A DNA stretch of 25,408 nt from a virus (Duplodnaviria; Heunggongvirae; Uroviricota; Caudoviricetes): IMG/VR virus record IMGVR_UViG_2734482775_000005; one strand, 5' to 3'. The notes below the pieces were generated by a model. That model had not been told where the DNA came from. It searched no databases and worked only from the letters and a program-made list of their open reading frames with translations. Positions within the stretch are counted from its first letter, which is position 1. Every line of letters begins with the position of its first letter. Below are positions 1 through 12,104 of the stretch, in pieces. The translations under genes and the position numbers were made by a program.

Positions 1-1053
1 TTACGGGGTAATGCCAACCGCTGCCGCCACTTTGTCGCCACTTGGCAGCGTTGCCAGAGGATTGAAACGGAGCGCCGTTTCCAGATGATCCGGTGCCAGA
101 TGTGCGTAACGCATAGTCATTTTTATATCGTGGTGTCCGAGAATTTTTTGTAAGGCCAGAATGTTTCCACCCGACATCATGAAGTGCGCTGCAAACGTAT
201 GGCGCAGAACGTGTGTGAGTTGACCGCGAGGGAGCACGATAGACGTTTTTTCCATCACGGATAAAAATTGAAAATAGCAGTCTGTGAAGAAATTGAACCC
301 ATCGAGCGCCATGATCTCTTCGTAAAGCTCTTTACTGATAGGGATGCTTCTGTTTTTCTTCCCCTTCGTTCTGACAAAGGTAATTCGGTATTTGGTCACC
401 TGTGAGCGGGTAAGATTTACGGCTTCACGCCAGCGTGCGCCTGTGCTTAAGCATATCTTAACTACCAGTGCCAGAATTGGGTCCTGACGTTTGCAATCAG
501 CCAGCAATTCAACAATCTGCTCATGGGTAAGCCATGCCATCTCTTTTTCTGCGATGGTGAATTTTCGCATGTTCTCCAGTGGGTTCGGATACGACCATTC
601 GCCCAGACGGGATAGTTCGCTAAAAACACTACTTAGATAGCTTTGCTCCAGGTTAATGGTGACCGGGCTTGCTCCTTTCTTCCATTTCTCGCTGAAGTAG
701 ATCTCGCCTGTCAGGCGTTTATCTCGATAGTGGGCAAACATTTTAGAGGTTAGATCAGTTGCAAGGGGATTGCCCAGAGCGTCAACCATCAGCAGCAATT
801 TGTCATAGACATGCTGCCCAGCAGTCAGTGATTTACCATGTAGTTTGAACCATAGCTCAACCACGTCTTTCAGTGTTCGACGATCCACTGATTCACCTAG
901 CCAGGGCTTTGCTTCGGTTTCTTCCATCGTGTGACGCTCAAAAGCCAGAGCTTCGCCTTTGGTGGCGAATTGTTTACGCACACGACGTCCACTACGTCCG
1001 GCGGGATAACATTCGCACAGCCATTTTCCTGTGGTGAGTTTTCGTACTGCCAT
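1..1053 (-). CDS. int: Tyrosine recombinase / phage integrase (P2 family)
   Basis: 350 aa ORF; C-terminal catalytic region ...HVLRHTFAAHFMMSGGNILALQKILGHHDIKMTMRYAHL (R..H..R..Y pattern); ATG at 1053-1051, stop at 3-1. Confidence 0.9.
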   Translation of the reverse strand: MAVRKLTTGKWLCECYPAGRSGRRVRKQFATKGEALAFERHTMEETEAKPWLGESVDRRTLKDVVELWFKLHGKSLTAGQHVYDKLLLMVDALGNPLATDLTSKMFAHYRDKRLTGEIYFSEKWKKGASPVTINLEQSYLSSVFSELSRLGEWSYPNPLENMRKFTIAEKEMAWLTHEQIVELLADCKRQDPILALVVKICLSTGARWREAVNLTRSQVTKYRITFVRTKGKKNRSIPISKELYEEIMALDGFNFFTDCYFQFLSVMEKTSIVLPRGQLTHVLRHTFAAHFMMSGGNILALQKILGHHDIKMTMRYAHLAPDHLETALRFNPLATLPSGDKVAAAVGITP

Positions 1054-1136: not shown

Positions 1137-2813
1137 CTAAGCAACATGTAGTTCATCGTTGGCGGAAGTGGCTGCTTTGCGTTCCTGCTCAATAGCTAGT
1201 GACTCTCTATATTCTTTCGCCTCTGCAAACATTGTCCAGTGGGCATTGATGTTCATATCTTCAATAACCGATTTAATTTCTTTAATATTTACGTTAAAAA
1301 ACTCTTTTCGTGAGTTAATTTTATTGACCTGCTTTTCGTTGAAGACTTTATGCAGATGATTTTCTAATGACGGTGCATCATCACTATAAATCATCGCATG
1401 AACATCGAACGCAAAAGGAACACTAGCATCCCCAAGTTCACGAACACGATCAAGTGGTTCAAGGCGGCGTGTCATTCCAATTTTATATACATCTTCGCCA
1501 AATGAGCCAATATTGCTAATTATATAAACATGGCCTGATCTAGTTTGTTGAGCCATAGAAATAGCTCGTTGGTTTTTAGCTTCAGCTTCTTCATATTTTA
1601 ACTGTAGTTCAGCTATTTTTTGCTCTAAAGCTAAGCGTTGTTCTTCATTTGCAAGCATAAGCTCTTTCGTCGCTTTATTTATAGCTTGCTGAATAGCTTT
1701 CTCTTCTTTTTCGGCTTCTTTTATCGCTTTTTCATACTCTCTACGAGCTCTTTCCTCTTCACGAAGCTGTTCTTTAATCCTTCTTTGCTCCTCTTTTTCT
1801 TCGAGCATAATTTCATTAACTGCAACTCCCCATTTTAGCTCGTTGAGTCGTGCCTGAAGATAGATGTCACTTATTTTTGCGGATTTAAAAGCAGAGCCAT
1901 TATAATTTACAAGTTGAAATGCATCTTTTATTTCTTGGGAAAGTTTTCCAAAATTGTTGTGTTTGACTTTTGATAAAATACTGTCAACTCTTCCATTGAA
2001 GGCATCCAAAACAAAGTTGATAGCAGTATTACGCCTGTTTTGCTCAACATAATCACACGAAGCTGCTTTATTAGTTTTTATTAATGATTTTGTTAACTCC
2101 CTGGCTTTTTGTAATTCCTTGCCTGCATCTGTAAACTCATAATTTTCTGCCAATTCATCAAGTACACTGCGGTTAGGGATGATCCATTCATCGCCATAAC
2201 CTTCAATTTTATTTTTCATTGATTTGGCAACTGCTTCATATTTTTCTGCAAACTCTTTAGCTTCATATGCTGAACCAGCAATCTCTTTTGCTCTTTCTTC
2301 TGCATCGGAAATAATTTTTACTGCGTTGTCATTAGCATTTGAGATCAGCTCATTTGCTTTACTGTTGGCATTATCAAGACGTTCTTTGGCTTTCAGGCGT
2401 GCATCGCGAGCGTCTTTGGTGATTGCTATAGCTTCGCTATTAGCGTTGCTTATTGTTATCTGAGCTTGATAATTTGCTTCGTTTACTGTCTTAGCAGCCT
2501 TTATTTGGGCTTCTTCTATTTTTTGCCTGGCTATTGAGTCTGCATTTTTTATCTTATTCTCTGCTTCCATCACTGCGCTGTGCAATTCTACGTATTGCCA
2601 TAATGGTGCAGCTCGTCCTTCAAGCTCTGATAGATCTCGTACAGTCTGTGCTAATTCTTCTTGATTTTCTTTCAGTTGGCTGGAAAGAGCTATGTTGTTA
2701 GCCGTCAGGTTATCTATGGCGGTTTTGTGTTCTTTACTTTGCTTAAATAATATTATAGCTAGAACAGGGGCGAGAAATGCTAATAAGAATATAACGATGG
2801 AAAATGAATTCAT
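1137..2813 (-). CDS. Membrane-anchored coiled-coil protein with C-terminal T5orf172/GIY-YIG-like (MUG113-type) domain; DUF4041-like architecture; candidate defence/abortive-infection cargo
   Basis: 558 aa; N-terminal hydrophobic helix MNSFSIVIFLLAFLAPVLAIILF; about 400 aa of K/E/A-rich heptad-like coiled coil; C-terminal motif GHVYIISNIGSFGEDVYKIGMTRRLEPLDRVRELGDASVPFAFDVHAMIY...EFF; AAGGA RBS 8 nt upstream of ATG at 2813; AT-rich relative to phage core. Confidence 0.75.
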   Translation of the reverse strand: MNSFSIVIFLLAFLAPVLAIILFKQSKEHKTAIDNLTANNIALSSQLKENQEELAQTVRDLSELEGRAAPLWQYVELHSAVMEAENKIKNADSIARQKIEEAQIKAAKTVNEANYQAQITISNANSEAIAITKDARDARLKAKERLDNANSKANELISNANDNAVKIISDAEERAKEIAGSAYEAKEFAEKYEAVAKSMKNKIEGYGDEWIIPNRSVLDELAENYEFTDAGKELQKARELTKSLIKTNKAASCDYVEQNRRNTAINFVLDAFNGRVDSILSKVKHNNFGKLSQEIKDAFQLVNYNGSAFKSAKISDIYLQARLNELKWGVAVNEIMLEEKEEQRRIKEQLREEERARREYEKAIKEAEKEEKAIQQAINKATKELMLANEEQRLALEQKIAELQLKYEEAEAKNQRAISMAQQTRSGHVYIISNIGSFGEDVYKIGMTRRLEPLDRVRELGDASVPFAFDVHAMIYSDDAPSLENHLHKVFNEKQVNKINSRKEFFNVNIKEIKSVIEDMNINAHWTMFAEAKEYRESLAIEQERKAATSANDELHVA

Positions 2814-2833: not shown

Positions 2834-3430
2834 TCAATTTGAAACTATTGTACTTCTTATACAAGCAACCACTTCAATATCAGAAAATGCACATTCAAAG
2901 CTATTCTCTGTAGTTGTAATTTTAATCATACCTTTTGGAAGCTTTGTGATTTTTCGAATGGAATAGGTTCCGTCGATGTTGATTAACCAGTGCCCATCAA
3001 GTACTTCAGAAAATTTTTGATCACAAATGTATGTGACAAGCCCATCCTGAATAACAATTGGTGATGAAAGATTTGCAGGAAGAAATGATGAATCGAAGAC
3101 ATATGAACCATCTTCAATCATTTTGCCTGCGGTAAGGCGAAACTTGGGAAGCTCTTCTGTGGCTACTGTCAGCGAGCTTTGCTTAAGTCCTTGCCCGGTG
3201 GTTAACCATTTCAGTGAGGTTCCTGTTTCAAGAGCACATTGGATTATCCAGTCTGCAGGAAACGTATCCCGCAAATACCTGTTCGCCAGAGTGCTTTTTG
3301 ATACTTCCAAGTGATCAGCTAAAGCCTGTCGTGTCGTAAAGCCATAAGCTTCGACTAATCGCTCAATCGCAGCCTTACCACCTTTATTGGGATTTATTTT
3401 GATCTCACTTGGGTACTTTGATGTTGACAT
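2834..3430 (-). CDS. cI: CI-type immunity repressor (N-terminal HTH, no recognisable S24 autocleavage motif; phage 186 CI-like)
   Basis: 198 aa; HTH-like segment FTTRQALADHLEVSKSTLANRYL; transcribed divergently from the early lytic operon; sits between int and the Apl/CII genes as in phage 186. Confidence 0.65.
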   Translation of the reverse strand: MSTSKYPSEIKINPNKGGKAAIERLVEAYGFTTRQALADHLEVSKSTLANRYLRDTFPADWIIQCALETGTSLKWLTTGQGLKQSSLTVATEELPKFRLTAGKMIEDGSYVFDSSFLPANLSSPIVIQDGLVTYICDQKFSEVLDGHWLINIDGTYSIRKITKLPKGMIKITTTENSFECAFSDIEVVACIRSTIVSN

Positions 3431-3525: not shown

Positions 3526-3747
3526 ATGACCCCTAACATTTCAATAACTCTGAATACGCCACATGTCACAATTGAGCGTTATAGCGAACTTACTGGTCTT
3601 TCAATCGACACAATTAACGATATGCTGGCTGACGGTCGCATCCCTCGGCATCGCCTTCGGAAAGACAAGAAAAGAGAAAAGGTGATGATCAACCTTGCTG
3701 CTCTTACCGTTGATGCACTTACTGATTGCAATGTTGTATTCAACTAG
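3526..3747 (+). CDS. Apl/Cox-like excisionase and transcriptional regulator (small HTH protein)
   Basis: 74 aa from ATG 3526 with AGGAG RBS; HTH-like [25 protein letters not shown]; first gene of the rightward early operon. The longer track ORF from 3409 is rejected because it would overlap the promoter and cI start. Confidence 0.6.
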
Positions 3748-3779: not shown

Positions 3780-4289
3780 ATGTTTGATTACCAAGTTTCC
3801 AAACATCCACATTTTGATGAAGCCTGTCGTGCATTCGCACTGCGCCACAACCTGGTGCAACTGGCAGAACGTGCAGGCATGAATGTGCAGATTCTGCGGA
3901 ACAAGCTGAACCCAGCTCAACCTCATTTATTAACCGCACCAGATATCTGGCTACTTACCGATCTGACTGAAGATTCAACGCTGGTAGACGGTTTTCTGGC
4001 ACAGATTCATTGTCTGCCATGTGTACCGATTAATGAGGTGGCAAAAGAGAAACTGCCACATTACGTCATGAGTGCAACCGCAGAGATCGGGCGTGTTGCT
4101 GCAGGTGCGGTATCTGGCGATGTAAAAACCAGTGCAGGTCGTCGTGATGCTATCAGCAGCATTAACTCTGTAACACGACTGATGGCGTTGGCTGCTGTTT
4201 CATTGCAGGCCCGTTTACAGGCTAACCCTGCGATGGCGAGTGCAGTTGATACCGTGACTGGCCTCGGTGCTTCATTCGGTTTGCTGTGA
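3780..4289 (+). CDS. cII: CII-like phage regulatory protein (phage 186 CII-like, 169 aa)
   Basis: ATG 3780 preceded by AGGGGTG RBS; position directly after apl; length matches my recollection of 186 CII. Confidence 0.55.
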
Positions 4290-5580: not shown

Positions 5581-6434
5581 GCACCATCCTGAAATGGGCG
5601 GGAAATAAAACCGCAATTATGTCCGAACTGAAAAAACACCTTCCTGCTGGCCCGCGACTGGTTGAACCTTTCGCAGGTTCCTGTGCTGTGATGATGGCGA
5701 CGGATTATCCAAGCTATCTGGTTGCGGATATTAATCCTGATTTAATCAACCTCTATAAAAAGGTTGCCGCTGATTGTGAATCGTTTATATCTCGCGCCAG
5801 AGTTTTATTTAAGGAAGCAAACAGGGAGGTGGCTTATTACAACATAAGGCAGGAGTTTAATTACTCAACTGAAATTACTGATTTCATGAAAGCGGTATAT
5901 TTCCTGTATCTCAATCGTCACGGTTACCGTGGTTTATGTCGCTATAACAAGAGCGGGCATTTCAACATTCCGTACGGTAATTATAAAAATCCGTATTTCC
6001 CTGAAAAAGAAATTCGCGCATTTGCAGAGAAAGCCCAGCGGGCAACGTTTATCTGCGCAAGCTTTGATGAAACGCTGGCGATGCTGCAGGTGGGGGATGT
6101 GGTGTATTGCGATCCGCCGTATGACGGTACGTTTTCCGGCTATCACACTGATGGTTTCACTGAAGATGACCAGTATCACCTGGCATCCGTTCTTGAACAT
6201 CGGTCATCAGAAGGACATCCGGTCATTGTTTCTAACAGTGACACATCCCTGATCCGTTCGCTATATCGCAATTTTACTCACCACTACATCAAGGCAAAAC
6301 GCAGCATCGGTGTGGCAGCTGGTGAGAGTAAATCTGCAACAGAAATCATCGCTGTTTCCGGGCCGCGCTGCTGGGTGGGATTTGATCCTTCGCGTGGCGT
6401 GGATAGTTCTGCCGTGTACGGAGTGCGTGCATGA
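5577..6434 (+). CDS. dam: DNA adenine methyltransferase (Dam-like, N6-adenine MTase)
   Basis: N-terminal WAGNK-type motif (LKWAGNK), FAGSCAV AdoMet-binding region, catalytic DPPY motif (CDPPYDGT); ATGA overlap with upstream stop. Confidence 0.85.
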
Positions 6435-8845
6435 GCCATGCTGATATGAACAACTGCAGCGGCTTTAACGAGGTCGCCGCAGCATTCTCATGGAACAGCC
6501 CGAAAAAGGCCATTAACCCTTATCTGGACCCGGCGGAAGTTGCGCCGGTTTCTGCGCTTTCAAACCTGATCACTCTGTACGCTGCCGATAACGAGCAGGA
6601 ACAGCTGCGCCGTGAGGCGCTGAGTGATCAGGTCTGGGAGCGTTATTTCTTTAATGAATCCCGTGATCCTGTCCAGCGCGAAATGGAACAGGATAAGCTC
6701 ATTAGTCGGGCAAAGCTGGCGCATGAGCAGCAGCGTTTTAATCCGGATATGGTCATTCTGGCGGACGTCAACGCCCAGCCTTCCCATATCAGCAAGCCGC
6801 TGATGCAACGTATTGAATACTTCAGCAGCCTGAGCAGGCCAAAGGCTTATTCCCGCTATTTGCGTGAGACGATTAAGCCATGTCTGGAACGACTGGAGCA
6901 TGTACGCGACAGTCAGCTATCTGCGTCTTTTCGCTTTATGGCAAGCCATGAAGGGCTGGACGGCCTGCTGATCCTGCCTGAAATGAGTCAGGATCAGGTG
7001 AAACGCCTGTCCACCCTGGTAGCTGCGCATATGAGTATGTGCCTTGATGCCGCTTGTGGCGATTTGTATGCCACCGATGACGTTAAGCCAGAAGAAATCC
7101 GCAATACATGGGAAAGGGTGGCAGCGGAAACCCTGCGTCTGGATGTCATCCCGCCTGCGTTTGAGCAACTCCGTCGGAAAAGAAACCGCCGTAAACCCGT
7201 GCCCTATGAACTCATTCCGGGTTCGCTGGCACGTATGTTGTGCGCCGACTGGTGGTATCGGAAATTATGGAAGATGCGTTGCGAATGGCGGGAAGAGCAG
7301 TTGCGTGCTGTCTGCCTTGTCAGCAAAAAAGCATCTCCCTATGTCAGCTATGAAGCCGTGTTGCATAAACGTGAGCAGCGCCGTAAGTCGCTGGAGTTTT
7401 TCCGTTCTCATGAACTGGTGAACGAAGACGGCGACACGCTGGACATGGAGGATGTGGTAAACGCCAGCAGCAGCAACCCTGCGCATCGCCGCAATGAGAT
7501 GATGGCCTGTGTTAAAGGTCTGGATCTTATCGCGGAAATGCGCGGTGACTGCGCCGTTTTCTACACCATCACCTGTCCGTCACGTTTCCATTCCACGCTA
7601 AATAACGGCAGGCCCAACCCGACCTGGACAAATGCGACGGTAAGACAAAGCAGCGATTATCTGGTCGGTATGTTTGCTGCATTTCGTAAGGCGATGCACA
7701 AAGCCGGGTTGCGCTGGTATGGCGTGCGGGTGGCTGAGCCGCATCACGACGGCACAGTTCACTGGCACCTGTTGTGTTTCATGCGCAAAAAAGACCGCCG
7801 CGCCATTACTGCATTGTTGCGTAAGTTTGCTATCCGTGAAGACCGCGAGGAGCTGGGCAATAACACGGGGCCGCGCTTTAAGTCTGAGCTGATTAACCCG
7901 CGCAAAGGAACGCCGACAAGCTACATAGCGAAATACATCAGTAAGAACATTGACGGGCGTGGTCTGGCTGGCGAGATCAGCAAGGAAACGGGTAAATCTC
8001 TGCGTGATAACGCTGAATACGTGAATGCCTGGGCGTCTTTGCATCGTGTTCAGCAATTCCGCTTCTTTGGCATTCCGGGACGTCAGGCTTACCGTGAACT
8101 GCGATTGCTGGCTGGTCAGGCGGCAAGGCAACAGGGGGACAAAAAAGCAGGTGCGCCGGTACTGGATAACCCGCGCCTTGATGCCATCCTGGCTGCTGCT
8201 GATGCTGGTTGTTTTGCCACCTACATCATGAAGCAGGGCGGCGTACTGGTTCCCCGTAAATATCACCTCATCAGAACCGCTTATGAAATCAACGAAGAGC
8301 CGACCGCCTATGGCGATCACGGCATTCGTATTTATGGCATCTGGTCACCCATTGCAGAGGGCAAGATCTGCACTCATGCAGTGAAGTGGAAAATGGTTCG
8401 TAAAGCCGTTGACGTTCAGGAGGCGGCAGCCGACCAGGGCGCTTGCGCCCCTTGGACTCGTGGCAATAACTGTCCCCTTGCTGAAAATTTGAACCAACAA
8501 GGGAAAGACAAATCAGCTGATGGGGATACCAGAACGGATATCACCCGCATGGATGACAAGGAGTTGCACGATTACCTGCACAGTATGAGCAAAAAAGAGC
8601 GCCGGGAACTGGCAGCAAGATTACGCCTGGTGAAACCGAAACGGCGTAGAGACTACAAACAGCGAATTACAGACCATCAACGACAGCAGCTCGTCTATGA
8701 ACTGAAGTCCAGAGGATTTGATGGCAGCGAGAAAGAGGTCGATTTACTCCTTCGCGGCGGCAGTATTCCGTCAGGAGCAGGCCTGCGAATCTTCTATCGG
8801 AACCAGCGTTTGCAGGAAGATGATAAGTGGCGGAACCTGTATTAA
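6431..8845 (+). CDS. A: Replication initiation endonuclease (P2 gpA-like rolling-circle initiator)
   Basis: 804 aa; HUH-type motif VHWHLL; size and position as P2/186 gene A; ATGA coupling with dam. Confidence 0.85.
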
Positions 8846-8936
8846 TTACGCGGGTTAACAATTCGTGCTCTTAATAATACCAGCATATCAGGCTGATGAA
8901 CGTAAAAAAACGTTTTACATCAGTAAGATTATTATA

Positions 8937-8956
8937 TACTGTAAATATAAACAGTG
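8937..8956 (+). promoter_or_regulatory. LexA-binding SOS box overlapping a promoter
   Basis: TACTGTAAATATAAACAGTG = CTGT-N8(AT-rich)-ACAG, a perfect match to the core LexA consensus; TTTACA -35-like hexamer about 20 bp upstream. Confidence 0.7.
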
Positions 8957-8997
8957 ATTATACATACAGTATTGCGTGTGGTGTCATAGGAGGAAAG

Positions 8998-9186
8998 ATG
9001 CAGGACTATTTTTTGGAGTCTTTGAAGCTCCAGCGCATTGATTTTTTTCTTAAGCTTGTAGCGGCTAGTGAGTGTAGTGATGAAGAGAAGGGGCTGGCTC
9101 TGCAGTGGGTTTCTGAATTGACTGATGAACTCATGGCAAAAATCAGAACCCACGAATACAACCGCTCAATGGATGTCATCAGCTGA
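8998..9186 (+). CDS. Small SOS-controlled protein, candidate antirepressor (Tum-like role)
   Basis: 62 aa from ATG 8998 with AGGAGGA RBS, directly downstream of the LexA box; the longer track ORF from 8896 would begin upstream of the box. Confidence 0.45.
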   Translation: MQDYFLESLKLQRIDFFLKLVAASECSDEEKGLALQWVSELTDELMAKIRTHEYNRSMDVIS

Positions 9187-9196
9187 GGTGACTTTT

Positions 9197-9430
9197 ATGC
9201 GCATTGAAATAATGATCGATAAAGAGCAGAAGATTAGCCAGTCTACCCTGGACGCCCTTGAATCCGAGCTTTACCGCAATCTGCGCCCCCTGTATCCCAA
9301 AACGGTAATTCGCATTCGCAAAGGTAGCTCTAACGGTGTGGAACTAACCGGACTGCAACTGGACGAAGAAAGAAAACAAGTGATGAAAATTATGCAGAAG
9401 GTGTGGGAAGACGACAGCTGGCTGCATTAA
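9197..9430 (+). CDS. dinI: DinI-like protein (DinI/MsgA family)
   Basis: 77 aa; MRIEIMIDK...LESELYRNLRPLYP...VWEDDSWL resembles E. coli DinI; GAGGTG RBS; same LexA-boxed operon. Confidence 0.7.
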   Translation: MRIEIMIDKEQKISQSTLDALESELYRNLRPLYPKTVIRIRKGSSNGVELTGLQLDEERKQVMKIMQKVWEDDSWLH

Positions 9431-9565
9431 GAAACGTTGCTGGCGTCTGAACTTGCTTCTGGCGTCAGCAAGGTTGAACAACGAGCCCTTGCGAGGCGTT
9501 AGCTCTGTAGTGCATGTCTATGCCGCATGAGATCGCATGATCGTTTGAGGATCGTTTTTGCTAAG

Positions 9566-9590
9566 GCCCGCCAGAACTGGCGGGCTTTTG
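9566..9590 (+). terminator. Rho-independent terminator ending the SOS operon
   Basis: GCCCGCCAG-AA-CTGGCGGGC stem-loop followed by TTTTG. Confidence 0.7.
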
Positions 9591-9788: not shown

Positions 9789-10595
9789 ATGAGTGACAGC
9801 AATCGCATGTCCAATGCACCCGTATACTATGTGCTGGCGCAAGTTAAGTTTACGCCTATCAAGGCGATGAAAAAGTATGTCGATGACATTCAGGAAGCAT
9901 TGCGTTTAAGGGGCTATCCACTCTTTGAAAGAAGAGAGGCAATGCAAATGGTGTTTGATGTTAATACGCCCGGTGAATCGCCTCAGCCATCTTTTGAAAT
10001 GGTCCAGCAGTGGTATATGTCTGACATCACTAAGACTTCAGGTTTTGTCTTGGGTAACGATTTTATTACTTTCCAGACGACTGATTACAAAGAACATGAA
10101 CCGTTCTTTAAAGCATTGATGGAAGGATTGTCTGTCGTAATAGAACATGCTAACCCAGCCCTTTTGACAAGACTTGGTTTGAGGTATCTGGATGCCGTAA
10201 TACCTAGTGAGGGTGAAAAGATTGAGCAGTACCTTTGCAATGGCTTACATGGTGTAGATTTGGATTTATCTCCGATACAATCGGTTAACGAGATGGTTTT
10301 CCAAACAAATGTTGGTCCTGTTATAAGTACTGGCTTTTTAGTAACTCGTTTGCATAAGATGTTTGGTCAGTTGAGTTTTCCTCCAGATATCTTGCCCTTT
10401 GGGGTTGAAATGCTTGAGCGGTTCAGGAGCGACAAGGCTCTTTGGCATGGGATTATTGATACAGACCATTATGTTGAAGGAAACATGCCGCCAGAAATAG
10501 ATTCAATTGAGCAACAGTTCAATTCACTACATGGTGTTGTAAAGGAAAGCTTTAATAAAATGGTATCCCAACATGCCATTAATAGGTGGGTATAA
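9789..10595 (+). CDS. Cargo gene 1 of three-gene operon: unknown-function protein (268 aa)
   Basis: AGGAGGG RBS before ATG 9789; no family assigned with confidence (N-terminal NAPVYYVLAQVKF is, very tentatively, reminiscent of TIGR04255-type uncharacterised proteins); AT-rich versus phage core. Confidence 0.75.
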   Translation: MSDSNRMSNAPVYYVLAQVKFTPIKAMKKYVDDIQEALRLRGYPLFERREAMQMVFDVNTPGESPQPSFEMVQQWYMSDITKTSGFVLGNDFITFQTTDYKEHEPFFKALMEGLSVVIEHANPALLTRLGLRYLDAVIPSEGEKIEQYLCNGLHGVDLDLSPIQSVNEMVFQTNVGPVISTGFLVTRLHKMFGQLSFPPDILPFGVEMLERFRSDKALWHGIIDTDHYVEGNMPPEIDSIEQQFNSLHGVVKESFNKMVSQHAINRWV

Positions 10596-10612
10596 CACCG
10601 GGGAGGTGTAAT

Positions 10613-11254
10613 ATGCGTCAATCCATGACTGGTAGTTGCTATGGGACTCCTGGTTTAGCTCCTATTGCTGGAGCGTTATTTGTTGCAACCTCTATGTTCC
10701 TGAGTGGAACAGGAGCGAGCTATTCTGTGAAGGATGTAAACCAGTGGCGTGGTTTTGTACAACCTAAAGTCCATTTTGGGTTATCTAAACTTGAAAATCA
10801 TGGGGATACAGATAATGACCCTGTTGATATCAGGACAATTTCAGAACATTTAAGTAATGTTAGGGATACTCTTTCTCCATCAATGTCAGAACTGGCTAAA
10901 GATTTGGGTATTACTAGGCAAGCATTATACAAATGGTTATCCGGTGACAGTCAGCCTGATGATATTGGGAAAGCTGGTTACATCATTGAACTCAGTAGAT
11001 TAGCCGATCGCTTTAACAAAGCAGGAGTAGAAAATGCTAAGTTGATGTCAAAAATGAAAGCGTTTGACGGCTTATCTATTATTGATTTGATTAAGCGAGG
11101 CGATGACTGGAAGTCGTCTGTGAATCTCTTAATCGATGAAGCTCGCCAGCTTAAAATTGCAGGTGTAAAAGCGAATTTAACTGGGAGCAAAAGCACGCCA
11201 ACTGACGGGTGGATGTCGTCTGTTTCTATACCTGGTTCAGGAATGAAGGAGTAG
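10613..11254 (+). CDS. Cargo gene 2: protein with central XRE-type helix-turn-helix and an N-terminal hydrophobic segment
   Basis: ATG 10613 with GGGAGG RBS, 17 bp after gene 1 stop; HTH-like MSELAKDLGITRQALYKWLSGDSQP; N-terminal GLAPIAGALFVATSMFLSGTGA is possibly a membrane helix. Confidence 0.7.
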   Translation: MRQSMTGSCYGTPGLAPIAGALFVATSMFLSGTGASYSVKDVNQWRGFVQPKVHFGLSKLENHGDTDNDPVDIRTISEHLSNVRDTLSPSMSELAKDLGITRQALYKWLSGDSQPDDIGKAGYIIELSRLADRFNKAGVENAKLMSKMKAFDGLSIIDLIKRGDDWKSSVNLLIDEARQLKIAGVKANLTGSKSTPTDGWMSSVSIPGSGMKE

Positions 11255-11264
11255 ATAGTCATTT

Positions 11265-12104
11265 ATGGTTGATATTGCTACAGCATGGCGCCAAGGCCAG
11301 GTTCTTAGGCATGAGGATGCAGTTTCTTTGGGTATTCTTACCGAAGAGGAAATAGGCGTTAAAGTTGTCGTGATCAGTCATGATTGTGACTTGCAAAGCT
11401 CTTCTGAACCCAGCGTTGAGCTTATTGCTGGCCCTCTCATTAAGGGGGCCAGCAATTATGCACGTGCTAAACATCCCAGAGTTCTGCATTTGCATTTAGA
11501 GCAAGCGCGTGACGCGAATCAAAATGCAATTGAACTAAGACATGACAACAAATTTCGTATTGATAAAGAACGTTTCACGTGTGTGGGATGTGACCCTACT
11601 TGCCAAATATCCCCTGAGGAAAAGCAAGGTTTAAAACAATGGCTTGCTGCCCGCTATGGGCGACCTGCCTTTCCTGATGTTTTTGAGAGTAGGCTAAGAG
11701 CTTTCGACACAAAGAAATTTAGATTCGAAAAACAACTCGCAAAGATAATTAGCAAACATTCAGTCTATTTGATAGGTGTATTCTTTGATTTAGGCGAAGA
11801 TCGTTTCAATGATTTAGAGGAAGGTGTACCTTACGAACTGAATATTCATCTTGTCTATGATTCTATAGATGGTGGGCCGGATGCAAGAGCAGAGGCAGAG
11901 CAGGCGGCAACACAAATTGAAGAGTTCTTTGTAACGTACCATGGTGATGCGTCTGAAAGTGAACTCATTGCGCTTATGTCTTGTAACGCAGTTCCTGACG
12001 TTGAATTCAGTCTGTATGCGTTACGGCGAATGGACCAGTGGCGGGTTGAGTACATTAGTCTACAAGGTGATGACGTGGGTGATTACATCAACCCAGCCAT
12101 CTAA
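11265..12104 (+). CDS. Cargo gene 3: unknown-function protein (279 aa)
   Basis: ATG 11265 ten bp after gene 2 stop with AAGGAG upstream; no recognisable domain by eye; ends at the bidirectional terminator. Confidence 0.75.
   Translation: MVDIATAWRQGQVLRHEDAVSLGILTEEEIGVKVVVISHDCDLQSSSEPSVELIAGPLIKGASNYARAKHPRVLHLHLEQARDANQNAIELRHDNKFRIDKERFTCVGCDPTCQISPEEKQGLKQWLAARYGRPAFPDVFESRLRAFDTKKFRFEKQLAKIISKHSVYLIGVFFDLGEDRFNDLEEGVPYELNIHLVYDSIDGGPDARAEAEQAATQIEEFFVTYHGDASESELIALMSCNAVPDVEFSLYALRRMDQWRVEYISLQGDDVGDYINPAI

What the first reader, a model, noticed from the sequence alone, without database searches (positions are those of the whole stretch)
8900..9430. LexA-boxed operon (small ORF + DinI-like) next to a non-autocleavable CI-type repressor
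A perfect CTGT-N8-ACAG LexA box (8939-8954) overlaps a promoter just upstream of a 62-aa ORF and a DinI homologue. The CI-like repressor shows no S24 autocleavage motif that I can see, so SOS induction would need an antirepressor, as Tum does in phage 186. The 62-aa protein is the obvious candidate but is much shorter than 186 Tum as I recall it, so it may be a distinct small antirepressor.
Basis: partly seen in the sequence, partly recalled or inferred. Interest (0 to 1): 0.5.

Follow-up and report, generated by a model that had tools for sequence, protein, structure and literature searches.

The report
Split Tum antirepressor SOS operon
This is the well-known DNA-damage switch of a P2/186-like (Fels-2-type) prophage: a LexA-repressed promoter drives a 62-residue antirepressor (TumA) and a DinI-like protein (TumB); it is ordinary, very common in E. 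coli, and a 98%-identical copy has already been tested genetically.

Summary
A strong LexA box (TACTGTAAATATAAACAGTG, 8937-8956) overlaps the -10 of a promoter (TTTACA-N17-TACTGT). That promoter drives a 62-aa ORF (8998-9186) and a 77-aa DinI-family ORF (9197-9430). The prophage repressor (2834-3430, minus strand) belongs to the phage 186 CI family and has no S24 peptidase domain.

It is homologous to the N-terminal half of 186 Tum (hhalign 94.9%, E 4.7e-8; reciprocal PHROG hits). The DinI ORF matches the C-terminal half of Tum (41% identity). This is the "split tum" arrangement already annotated as tumA/tumB in PSP3 and described for Fels-2.

The 62-aa protein is 98% identical to Fels-2 STM2728 and to ECHS_RS04495 of E. 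coli HS prophage DuoHS. An in-frame deletion of that gene, or a lexA(Ind-) allele, abolishes mitomycin C induction (Nat Microbiol 2025). The operon is in 1144 of 5426 complete E. coli genomes.

Verdict: already known, low interest. What remains is an annotation gap ("hypothetical protein", no Pfam family). There is also a modest new hint that TumA co-varies with the CI DNA-binding domain rather than with its oligomerisation domain.

The parts
8914..8919 (+). -35 hexamer TTTACA of the SOS promoter (equivalent of 186 p95)
   Evidence: Read from the sequence. It lies 17 nt upstream of TACTGT. TT(T/C)ACA-N17/18-TACTGT is conserved in SEN8, ST258phi16.1, ESSI2, 186 and PSP3 although the spacers differ. 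186 p95 is annotated with the same layout. Inferred, not shown by transcript mapping.
8937..8942 (+). -10 hexamer TACTGT, embedded in the left half of the LexA box
   Evidence: Same arrangement as the annotated 186 p95 -10. Conserved.
8937..8956 (.). LexA (SOS) box TACTGTAAATATAAACAGTG
   Evidence: 3 mismatches to the 20-mer consensus, and 0 of 100 shuffles do as well. Conserved in 12 of 13 relatives. Identical in E. coli HS DuoHS, where lexA(Ind-) blocks induction.
8964..8971 (.). Conserved half LexA site ATACAGTA, 15 bp downstream of the full box. It aligns with the right half of the single box of 186 and PSP3. Probably a relic or an auxiliary half-site.
   Evidence: The left half is degenerate (GTGA instead of CTGT). 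Function not tested.
8988..8993 (+). Shine-Dalgarno AGGAGG for tumA
   Evidence: Sequence. Conserved in relatives.
8998..9186 (+). tumA: 62-aa antirepressor, homologue of the N-terminal half of 186 Tum
   Evidence: 98.4% identical to Fels-2 STM2728. 61/62 identical to ECHS_RS04495, the experimentally deleted 'tum' of DuoHS. hhalign against 186 Tum residues 3-45: probability 94.9%, E 4.7e-8. PHROG cross-hits. dN/dS 0.04-0.12. AF2 model is a helical hairpin, pLDDT 85.7.
9197..9430 (+). tumB/dinI: 77-aa DinI-family protein, homologue of the C-terminal half of 186 Tum. Its ribosome-binding site GAGGTG (9185-9190) overlaps the tumA stop codon.
   Evidence: Pfam DinI E 6.6e-23. 41% identical to Tum residues 71-145. 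78% identical to PSP3 TumB and 100% to the Fels-2 protein.
9433..9475 (+). Stable hairpin directly after dinI, at the position of 186 t95a. No U-run follows it.
   Evidence: RNA fold. Role inferred only.
9565..9589 (+). Terminator-like hairpin GGCCCGCCAGAACTGGCGGGCTTTT; likely end of the SOS transcript
   Evidence: Sequence and fold. The scan tool missed it because the T-run has only 4 Ts. Inferred.
2834..3430 (-). cI: 198-aa immunity repressor of the 186 CI family, the presumed target of TumA
   Evidence: Pfam Phage_CI_repr E 8e-32 plus Phage_CI_C E 2.5e-27, and no S24. Best solved relative is 186 CI, 2FJR, E 6e-27. 33% identical to 186 CI, 41% to Fels-2 CI, 55% to DuoHS CI.
3526..3747 (+). 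apl/cox-like excisionase and repressor, first gene of the lytic operon that CI represses
   Evidence: phrog_575, 'Cox-like excisionase and repressor', E 9.6e-32.
3780..4289 (+). cII (186-type lysogeny establishment activator); context
   Evidence: Pfam Phage_CP76 E 1.3e-41.
6431..8845 (+). Replication endonuclease gpA. The SOS operon follows it directly, as in 186, PSP3 and Fels-2.
   Evidence: Synteny with the annotated records.

Best explanation
The region is the SOS induction module of a Fels-2-type (P2/186-like, Peduoviridae) prophage.

In an undamaged lysogen, host LexA binds the box at 8937-8956. This box covers the -10 of the promoter TTTACA-N17-TACTGT and keeps the two-gene operon tumA-tumB(dinI) off.

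DNA damage activates RecA, LexA cleaves itself, and the operon is transcribed. TumA is a 62-residue helical hairpin homologous to the N-terminal half of 186 Tum. It binds the 186-type CI repressor, which has no autocleavage domain, and sequesters it from its operators. The lytic promoter then fires and expresses Apl and the early genes, leading to excision and lytic growth.

TumB is a DinI-family protein. It most likely tunes RecA filament activity, and therefore the strength or duration of the SOS signal, rather than acting on CI.

Shown by sequence here: the box, the promoter layout, the homologies and the domain content of CI. Shown experimentally elsewhere for a 98%-identical orthologue: induction depends on both tum and LexA cleavage. 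Inferred: direct TumA-CI binding in this phage, which CI surface is bound, and the role of TumB.
For: - LexA box and promoter. Conserved in 12 of 13 relatives, with a conserved -35/-10 layout. This corresponds to the annotated 186 p95 promoter and LexA site.
- TumA is homologous to the Tum N-terminal half: Smith-Waterman score 57 against shuffles 21.5 +/- 4.0, with 0 of 2000 reaching it. The 186 Tum 1-70 fragment hits the window protein's family phrog_698 at E 5.9e-6 in the same register. Both hit phrog_8554, and both hit phrog_1993, the PSP3 TumA family. hhalign probability 94.9%, E 4.7e-8.
- DinI ORF: Pfam E 6.6e-23; 41% identical to Tum 71-145.
- CI: 186-CI domains and no S24.
- TumA is a real gene: dN/dS 0.04-0.12. 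66 representative relatives, nearly all small stand-alone proteins.
- Literature: 186 induction works through LexA-regulated p95 and the anti-CI factor Tum (PMC7708051). Fels-2 and PSP3 have tum split by a stop codon, and in PSP3 the upstream gene carries the antirepressor activity (PMC3121763). The PSP3 record is annotated tumA 'UV induction of prophage' and tumB. In E. coli HS, in-frame delta-tum (ECHS_RS04495) and lexA(Ind-) abolish MMC induction of DuoHS (PMC12055606).
- ECHS_RS04495 is 61/62 identical to the window ORF and has the same upstream box.
Against: - Nothing was measured on this particular phage.
- Its CI is only 55% identical to the DuoHS CI and 33% to the 186 CI, so TumA-CI pairing here rests on homology.
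- BLASTP alone finds no TumA/Tum alignment. The match to PSP3 TumA by hhalign is weak (E 0.005, probability 7%), so that link runs through family profiles.
- The -10 hexamer is poor, and the generic promoter scan reports no site.
- The PSP3 antirepressor assignment is a personal communication, quoted second-hand.
- The DuoHS in-frame deletion could in principle also lower translation of the coupled dinI gene.
Confidence: 0.9

Rival explanations
1. The 62-aa protein is not sufficient as an antirepressor. Either the active species needs both halves (TumA plus the DinI-like TumB acting as a non-covalent Tum), or TumB is the real effector and TumA is an accessory.
For: In 186 the two halves are one polypeptide. 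The two ORFs are tightly coupled, with the dinI ribosome-binding site overlapping the tumA stop codon. The DuoHS delta-tum deletion could be partly polar on dinI.
Against: [quoted passage not shown]
- ESSI2-type phages carry a LexA-boxed tumA with no dinI after it.
- The 186 record annotates the DinI-only product (Tum72) as modulating SOS induction, not as inhibiting CI.
- Most TumA relatives are stand-alone proteins of 55-75 aa.
Confidence: 0.06
2. The split is a decayed tum gene: a nonsense or frameshift event killed a fused Tum, the 62-aa ORF is a remnant, and the prophage no longer responds to SOS.
For: 62 + 77 aa is close to the 146 aa of fused 186 Tum. The two ORFs are in different frames, separated by 10 nt.
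Against: - Strong purifying selection on the 62-aa ORF (dN/dS 0.04-0.12 at dS around 1).
- It has its own AGGAGG, and dinI has its own ribosome-binding site and ATG.
- The same split is present in over 1000 E. coli genomes and in Salmonella and Klebsiella phages.
- Fels-2-type DuoHS, with the same split, is MMC-inducible in a tum-dependent way.
Confidence: 0.01
3. The repressor is inactivated directly by RecA-stimulated self-cleavage as in lambda, and the LexA-controlled operon is only an SOS-modulating moron.
For: The DinI-like gene alone would fit an SOS-modulating role. An Ala-Gly dipeptide exists in the CI linker region (residues 100-101; sequence).
Against: - No Peptidase_S24 match even at E<=10.
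- CI belongs to the 186 CI family (2FJR). The 186 CI is inactivated by Tum, not described as cleaved.
- Delta-tum abolishes induction of DuoHS although its SOS response is intact.
Confidence: 0.02

Closest known systems
tum (ECHS_RS04495) / dinI-like (ECHS_RS04500) of P2-like prophage DuoHS, E. coli HS (Ortiz de Ora et al., Nat Microbiol 2025, PMC12055606)
   Same: The 62-aa protein is 61/62 identical. The LexA box, -35, -10 and SD are identical. The gene order gpA - tum - dinI is the same. Induction by MMC requires tum and cleavable LexA.
   Different: The CI repressors are only 55% identical. The cargo genes downstream of dinI differ. RefSeq still labels the gene 'hypothetical protein'.
Fels-2 STM2728 / STM2726.1 (Salmonella Typhimurium LT2)
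   Same: TumA 98.4% identical and DinI 100% identical. Same LexA box and same position after gpA. [quoted passage not shown]
   Different: CI is 41% identical overall: N-terminal domain 72%, C-terminal domain about 30%. Different cargo.
PSP3 tumA / tumB
   Same: Same split architecture and a LexA box upstream. tumA is annotated 'similar to 5' end 186 tum; UV induction of prophage'. TumB is 78% identical to the window DinI.
   Different: PSP3 TumA is only about 12-20% identical to the window TumA and belongs to a different PHROG (1993 against 698); the link is at profile level. PSP3 has one LexA box about 40 nt from the start codon. The window has a box at -61 plus a relic half-site. PSP3 CI has a duplicated HTH domain.
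Phage 186 Tum (146 aa) and the p95 SOS operon
   Same: LexA box overlapping a TACTGT -10. Location directly after gene A. N-terminal half homologous to TumA and C-terminal half homologous to the DinI ORF. The cognate CI is of the same family and lacks S24.
   Different: In 186 the two halves are fused in one polypeptide, with internal starts giving DinI-only products. The operon continues into orf97. Here there are two separate, translationally coupled genes, with a terminator-like hairpin and then unrelated cargo.
Gifsy/Fels-1 LexA-controlled antirepressors (GfoA, GftA, FsoA) and N15 AntC
   Same: Same logic: a LexA-repressed small antirepressor that sequesters a non-cleavable repressor, often co-transcribed with a dinI homologue.
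   Different: No sequence relationship was detected. The gene order is reversed (dinI first) in the Gifsy phages. The repressor families differ.

Membership tests
186 Tum / PSP3 TumA-type antirepressor | Sequence homology to the N-terminal (non-DinI) half of 186 Tum | tested here: met
   hhalign of 27 TumA homologues against 186 Tum: probability 94.9%, E 4.7e-8, Tum residues 3-45. 186 Tum 1-70 hits phrog_698, the window protein's family, at E 5.9e-6. Smith-Waterman z about 8.8. Plain BLASTP is negative.
186 Tum / PSP3 TumA-type antirepressor | Expressed from a LexA-repressed promoter (SOS box overlapping the promoter) | tested here: met
   Met at sequence level only. 20-mer box with 3 mismatches to consensus, overlapping the TACTGT -10 and conserved in relatives. 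The identical box is in DuoHS, whose induction needs cleavable LexA. LexA binding to this DNA was not measured.
186 Tum / PSP3 TumA-type antirepressor | Located immediately downstream of replication gene A in a P2/186-like phage | tested here: met
   gpA is 6431-8845 and tumA is 8998-9186. Same synteny in 186, PSP3, Fels-2 and DuoHS.
186 Tum / PSP3 TumA-type antirepressor | Cognate immunity repressor is a 186-type CI without an autocleavage (S24) domain | tested here: met
   Phage_CI_repr plus Phage_CI_C, no S24 at E<=10. 2FJR E 6e-27.
186 Tum / PSP3 TumA-type antirepressor | Binds CI and prevents operator binding; required for SOS induction | not testable with these tools
   Shown genetically for the 61/62-identical DuoHS gene and biochemically for 186 Tum (cited). 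Not measured for this phage.
Fused 186-type Tum (single 146-aa polypeptide) | Antirepressor half and DinI half in one reading frame | tested here: not met
   TGA at 9184-9186 ends the 62-aa ORF. The DinI ORF starts at 9197 in the +1 frame with its own ribosome-binding site. This is the split tumA/tumB form, as in PSP3 and Fels-2.
DinI family (PF06183) | Match to the DinI profile over its full length, including the acidic C-terminal helix | tested here: met
   Pfam DinI E 6.6e-23, profile positions 1-63 of 63. C-terminal ...VWEDDSW aligns with Tum ...VWEDESW. It is below the NCBIfam equivalog cut-off for chromosomal DinI (42.7 against 111 bits), so it is a paralogue, not host DinI. RecA binding not testable.
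Lambda-type self-cleaving repressor (S24 / LexA-like) | Peptidase_S24 C-terminal domain with a Ser-Lys dyad | tested here: not met
   No S24 hit at E<=10. The C-terminal domain is Phage_CI_C.

The most novel reading that the evidence does not exclude
TumA recognises the conserved N-terminal DNA-binding domain of CI rather than its variable C-terminal oligomerisation domain. One invariant TumA could then inactivate many CI variants whose C-terminal domains have diverged.

If the N-terminal differences (72-85% identity) still define separate immunities, co-resident Fels-2-type prophages would be cross-induced in trans, as with Gifsy-type antirepressor crosstalk. Up to 4 copies of the operon occur per E. 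coli genome.

Supporting hints: TumA is 98-100% identical in phages whose CI is only 39-55% identical overall. Across 12 phages, TumA identity tracks CI N-terminal domain identity (Spearman 0.79, Mantel p 0.001) but not C-terminal domain identity (0.16, p 0.21).

The correlation may simply reflect shared ancestry and saturation of the C-terminal domain.
Probability: 0.3. Interest if true: 0.35.

Novelty: already known. Interest (0 to 1): 0.1.

Why it matters
Scientifically it adds little. The LexA-Tum-CI induction pathway of 186-like phages is textbook. The split tumA/tumB form has been described for PSP3 and Fels-2 and tested genetically in E. coli HS.

The practical point is annotation. The 62-aa antirepressor has no Pfam or NCBIfam model, sits in a PHROG of 'unknown function', and is called 'hypothetical protein' (once even 'levan regulatory protein') in RefSeq and GenBank. 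Yet it is present in about a fifth of complete E. coli genomes. Prophage-inducibility predictions that look only for S24 repressors or named antirepressors will therefore miss it.

Tried and rejected
- BLASTP of the 62-aa protein against 186 Tum gave no alignment. Homology appeared only with Smith-Waterman plus shuffles and with profile methods.
- The generic sigma-70 and terminator scan found no promoter and missed the likely terminator. The promoter was assigned by comparison with the annotated 186 p95 and by conservation.
- Pfam, NCBIfam and PADLOC have no model for the 62-aa protein.
- No solved structure is related by sequence. The Foldseek PDB search of the AF2 helical hairpin gave only generic two-helix matches (best E 0.73, ExoVII small subunit), so it was not interpreted.
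- Rfam found nothing in the window.
- Bunny et al. 2002 (PMC151935) is not held, so it is cited only through Lemire et al. 2011.
- The idea that the 96-aa extension of the ORF (ATG 8896) is real was rejected. It would start upstream of the promoter and LexA box, and it lacks a ribosome-binding site. The annotated 62-aa form in the fetched relatives (Fels-2, KP12, DuoHS and others) starts at the equivalent of 8998.
- A second full LexA box at 8952-8971 was considered and rejected. Its left half is GTGA rather than CTGT, with 5 mismatches to consensus.

Full report
**Context**

The window is the left two-thirds of a P2/186-like prophage of the Fels-2 type (Peduoviridae). The genes, in order:
- integrase, 1-1053 (minus strand)
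- a 558-aa moron, 1137-2813 (minus strand)
- cI, 2834-3430 (minus strand)
- an apl/cox-like gene, 3526-3747
- cII, 3780-4289
- small early genes and a Dam methylase
- replication gene A, 6431-8845
- the region of the finding
- a three-gene cargo island, 9789-12104
- portal, terminase and the late genes

The 700 bp around the finding are 90-99% identical to many Escherichia, Klebsiella and Salmonella P2-like phages. They occur in 1144 of 5426 complete E. coli genomes.

**Observation**

CTGT-N8-ACAG lies at 8939-8954 and is the only such match in the window. On its own this is not significant: 0.28 matches are expected, and 23 of 100 shuffles have one. The 20-mer TACTGTAAATATAAACAGTG (8937-8956) is within three mismatches of TACTGTATATATATACAGTA, and no shuffle reaches that.

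The box is present upstream of the homologous gene in 12 of 13 related phages I extracted. In the thirteenth it differs at one core base.

The generic promoter scan found nothing. However, TTTACA (8914-8919), a 17-nt spacer and TACTGT (8937-8942) reproduce the annotated p95 promoter of phage 186. That promoter is TTCACA-N18-TACTGT, with the -10 forming the left arm of the LexA site. The TT(T/C)ACA-N17/18-TACTGT layout survives in SEN8, ST258phi16.1 and ESSI2, although their spacer sequences are unrelated.

A perfect AGGAGG (8988-8993) precedes the ATG at 8998. The 62-aa ORF ends at 9186. The DinI ORF (9197-9430) has its ribosome-binding site, GAGGTG, overlapping the upstream stop codon. A stable hairpin (9433-9475) and a terminator-like hairpin with a TTTT tail (9565-9589) follow. 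In many relatives, homology ends exactly at the dinI stop codon, so the variable cargo island begins there.

**What the proteins are**

- The 77-aa ORF is a DinI-family protein (Pfam E 6.6e-23). It is 41% identical to residues 71-145 of 186 Tum.
- The 62-aa ORF has no Pfam, NCBIfam or PADLOC model, and BLASTP does not align it to Tum.
- A Smith-Waterman alignment to Tum residues 6-41 scores 57, against 21.5 +/- 4.0 for 2000 shuffles.
- It belongs to phrog_698 (E 3.6e-38). The N-terminal 70 residues of 186 Tum hit the same profile in the same register (E 5.9e-6).
- Both proteins also hit phrog_8554 and phrog_1993. The latter is the family of PSP3 TumA.
- An exhaustive HMMER search of 1.84 billion representatives found only 66 relatives, nearly all stand-alone proteins of 50-75 aa.
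- A 27-sequence alignment of these relatives matches 186 Tum residues 3-45 by hhalign, with 94.9% probability and E 4.7e-8.
- Conserved positions are D3, E7, R13, C26, W37, E40, L41 and L45.
- AlphaFold2 predicts a two-helix hairpin (helices 2-22 and 28-61, mean pLDDT 85.7). Fold and sequence searches of the PDB give nothing specific.
- The ORF is under strong purifying selection: dN/dS is 0.04-0.12 at dS around 1.

So the 62-aa and 77-aa ORFs together correspond to the two halves of the 146-aa 186 Tum.

**The repressor**

The 198-aa protein at 2834-3430 (minus strand) carries Phage_CI_repr and Phage_CI_C. It has no Peptidase_S24 match even at E<=10. Its best solved relative is 186 CI (2FJR, E 6e-27). 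It is 33% identical to 186 CI, 41% to Fels-2 CI, 55% to E. coli HS DuoHS CI and 100% to Klebsiella phage KP12 CI. It lies 5.5 kb from the SOS operon, as in 186, so it is not 'next to' it.

**What is already known**

- The 186 record annotates p95, its LexA site, tum ('expression repressed by LexA; inhibits CI DNA binding') and the DinI-only internal products that 'modulate SOS induction'.
- Murchland et al. 2020 summarise that 186 induction occurs through the anti-CI factor Tum after SOS derepression of p95 (PMC7708051).
- The PSP3 record annotates tumA ('similar to 5' end 186 tum; UV induction of prophage') and tumB ('similar to dinI and 3' end of 186 tum').
- Lemire et al. [quoted passage not shown] They cite Bunny et al. 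2002 and a personal communication from G. E. Christie (PMC3121763).
- The window protein is 98.4% identical to Fels-2 STM2728, and its DinI is 100% identical to the Fels-2 one.
- Ortiz de Ora et al. [quoted passage not shown] They showed that delta-tum and lexA(Ind-) both abolish mitomycin C induction, while the SOS reporter still fires in delta-tum (PMC12055606).
- I fetched that locus. ECHS_RS04495 is a 62-aa 'hypothetical protein' followed by a DinI-like gene. It is 61/62 identical to the window ORF and has the same -35, LexA box and SD.

**Mechanism**

LexA occupies the box over the -10 and silences tumA-tumB. DNA damage activates RecA, LexA self-cleaves, and the operon is transcribed. TumA then sequesters CI, the lytic promoter is derepressed, and Apl with the early genes drives excision and lytic growth. 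TumB (DinI-like) probably modulates RecA filament activity.

The sequence features and homologies are shown here. The dependence on tum and LexA is shown in DuoHS. Direct TumA-CI binding in this phage and the role of TumB are inferred.

**A small extra observation**

TumA is 98-100% identical in phages whose CI proteins are only 39-55% identical to the window's. Splitting CI gives a clearer picture:
- N-terminal HTH domain identity to the window is 72-85% where TumA is at least 84% identical, 63% where TumA is 47-49% identical (ESSI2), and 43-48% for 186 and PSP3.
- C-terminal domain identity stays at 23-43% throughout.
- Over all 66 pairs of 12 phages, TumA identity correlates with N-terminal domain identity (Spearman 0.79, Mantel p 0.001) but not with C-terminal domain identity (0.16, p 0.21).

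This fits TumA contacting the DNA-binding domain, and it raises the possibility of cross-induction among co-resident Fels-2-type prophages. Shared ancestry and saturation of the C-terminal domain could produce the same pattern.

**Rivals**

- TumA needs TumB. This is unlikely, given the PSP3 data, ESSI2-type phages that have a LexA-boxed tumA without dinI, and the 186 annotation of DinI-only products as modulators.
- The split is a decayed gene. This is refuted by the dN/dS values, the separate ribosome-binding sites, the wide conservation and the inducibility of DuoHS.
- CI self-cleaves. There is no S24 domain, and delta-tum blocks induction in DuoHS.

**Verdict**

The 'distinct small antirepressor' idea is not supported: this is the known TumA half of a split Tum. 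Novelty is 'already known' and interest is low. What remains is the annotation gap and the untested hint that TumA contacts the CI N-terminal domain.

Noticed in passing
window 1137-2813 (-): A 558-aa protein with DUF4041 and T5orf172/MUG113 domains sits between int and cI. It matches the PADLOC model for the anti-phage defence protein PD-Lambda-1 (E 1.3e-119). It is a defence moron at the int-cI junction. KP12 annotates the same gene as 'chromosome segregation ATPase'.
   Followed up: partly
window 9789-12104 (+): A three-gene cargo island lies between dinI and the portal gene, at the P2 tin/old-type variable hotspot. It holds a 268-aa TIGR04255-family protein (E 3.9e-47), an HTH protein (222-aa ORF whose start is uncertain; the exact sequence is not in the protein collection) and a 279-aa protein with no family. 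None has a PADLOC hit, and no paper in the library mentions TIGR04255. It may be an uncharacterised defence or toxin-antitoxin-like system.
   Followed up: partly
window 8964-8971: A conserved ATACAGTA half LexA site lies 15 bp downstream of the full box. It aligns with the right arm of the single LexA box of 186 and PSP3. Fels-2-type phages therefore seem to have gained a new full box upstream and kept a relic, or an auxiliary half-site.
   Followed up: partly
L009 1480-1692 (ESSI2_ev129) and proteins P0032, P0034, P0037, P0040, P0049, P0054, P0057, P0062, P0066: Distant TumA homologues carry a Gly-rich C-terminal tail ending in (L/F)Q, for example ...NGGISGGGSRFQ. The window protein lacks it. 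ESSI2_ev129 has a LexA-boxed tumA but no dinI gene after it. The meaning of the tail is unknown.
   Followed up: no
L005, L012, L003 (4LV2017, ST258-KPC3phi16.2, PSP3 cI genes): Some relatives encode a longer CI (about 286-313 aa) with a tandem duplication of the N-terminal HTH domain, while keeping the same TumA.
   Followed up: no
window 2834-3430 and 9197-9430: The exact CI and DinI sequences carry the UniProt names 'Protein ORFi in retron Ec67' and 'DinI-like protein in retron Ec67'. The classic Ec67 retron element therefore sits in a phage of this same type. This window has different cargo (no reverse transcriptase was seen) at the hotspot.
   Followed up: no
window 8998-9186: Annotation gap. 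The exact 62-aa sequence is on at least 1000 contigs and is named 'hypothetical protein', or once 'levan regulatory protein'. PHROG 698 is listed as 'unknown function', and there is no Pfam or NCBIfam model.
   Followed up: yes
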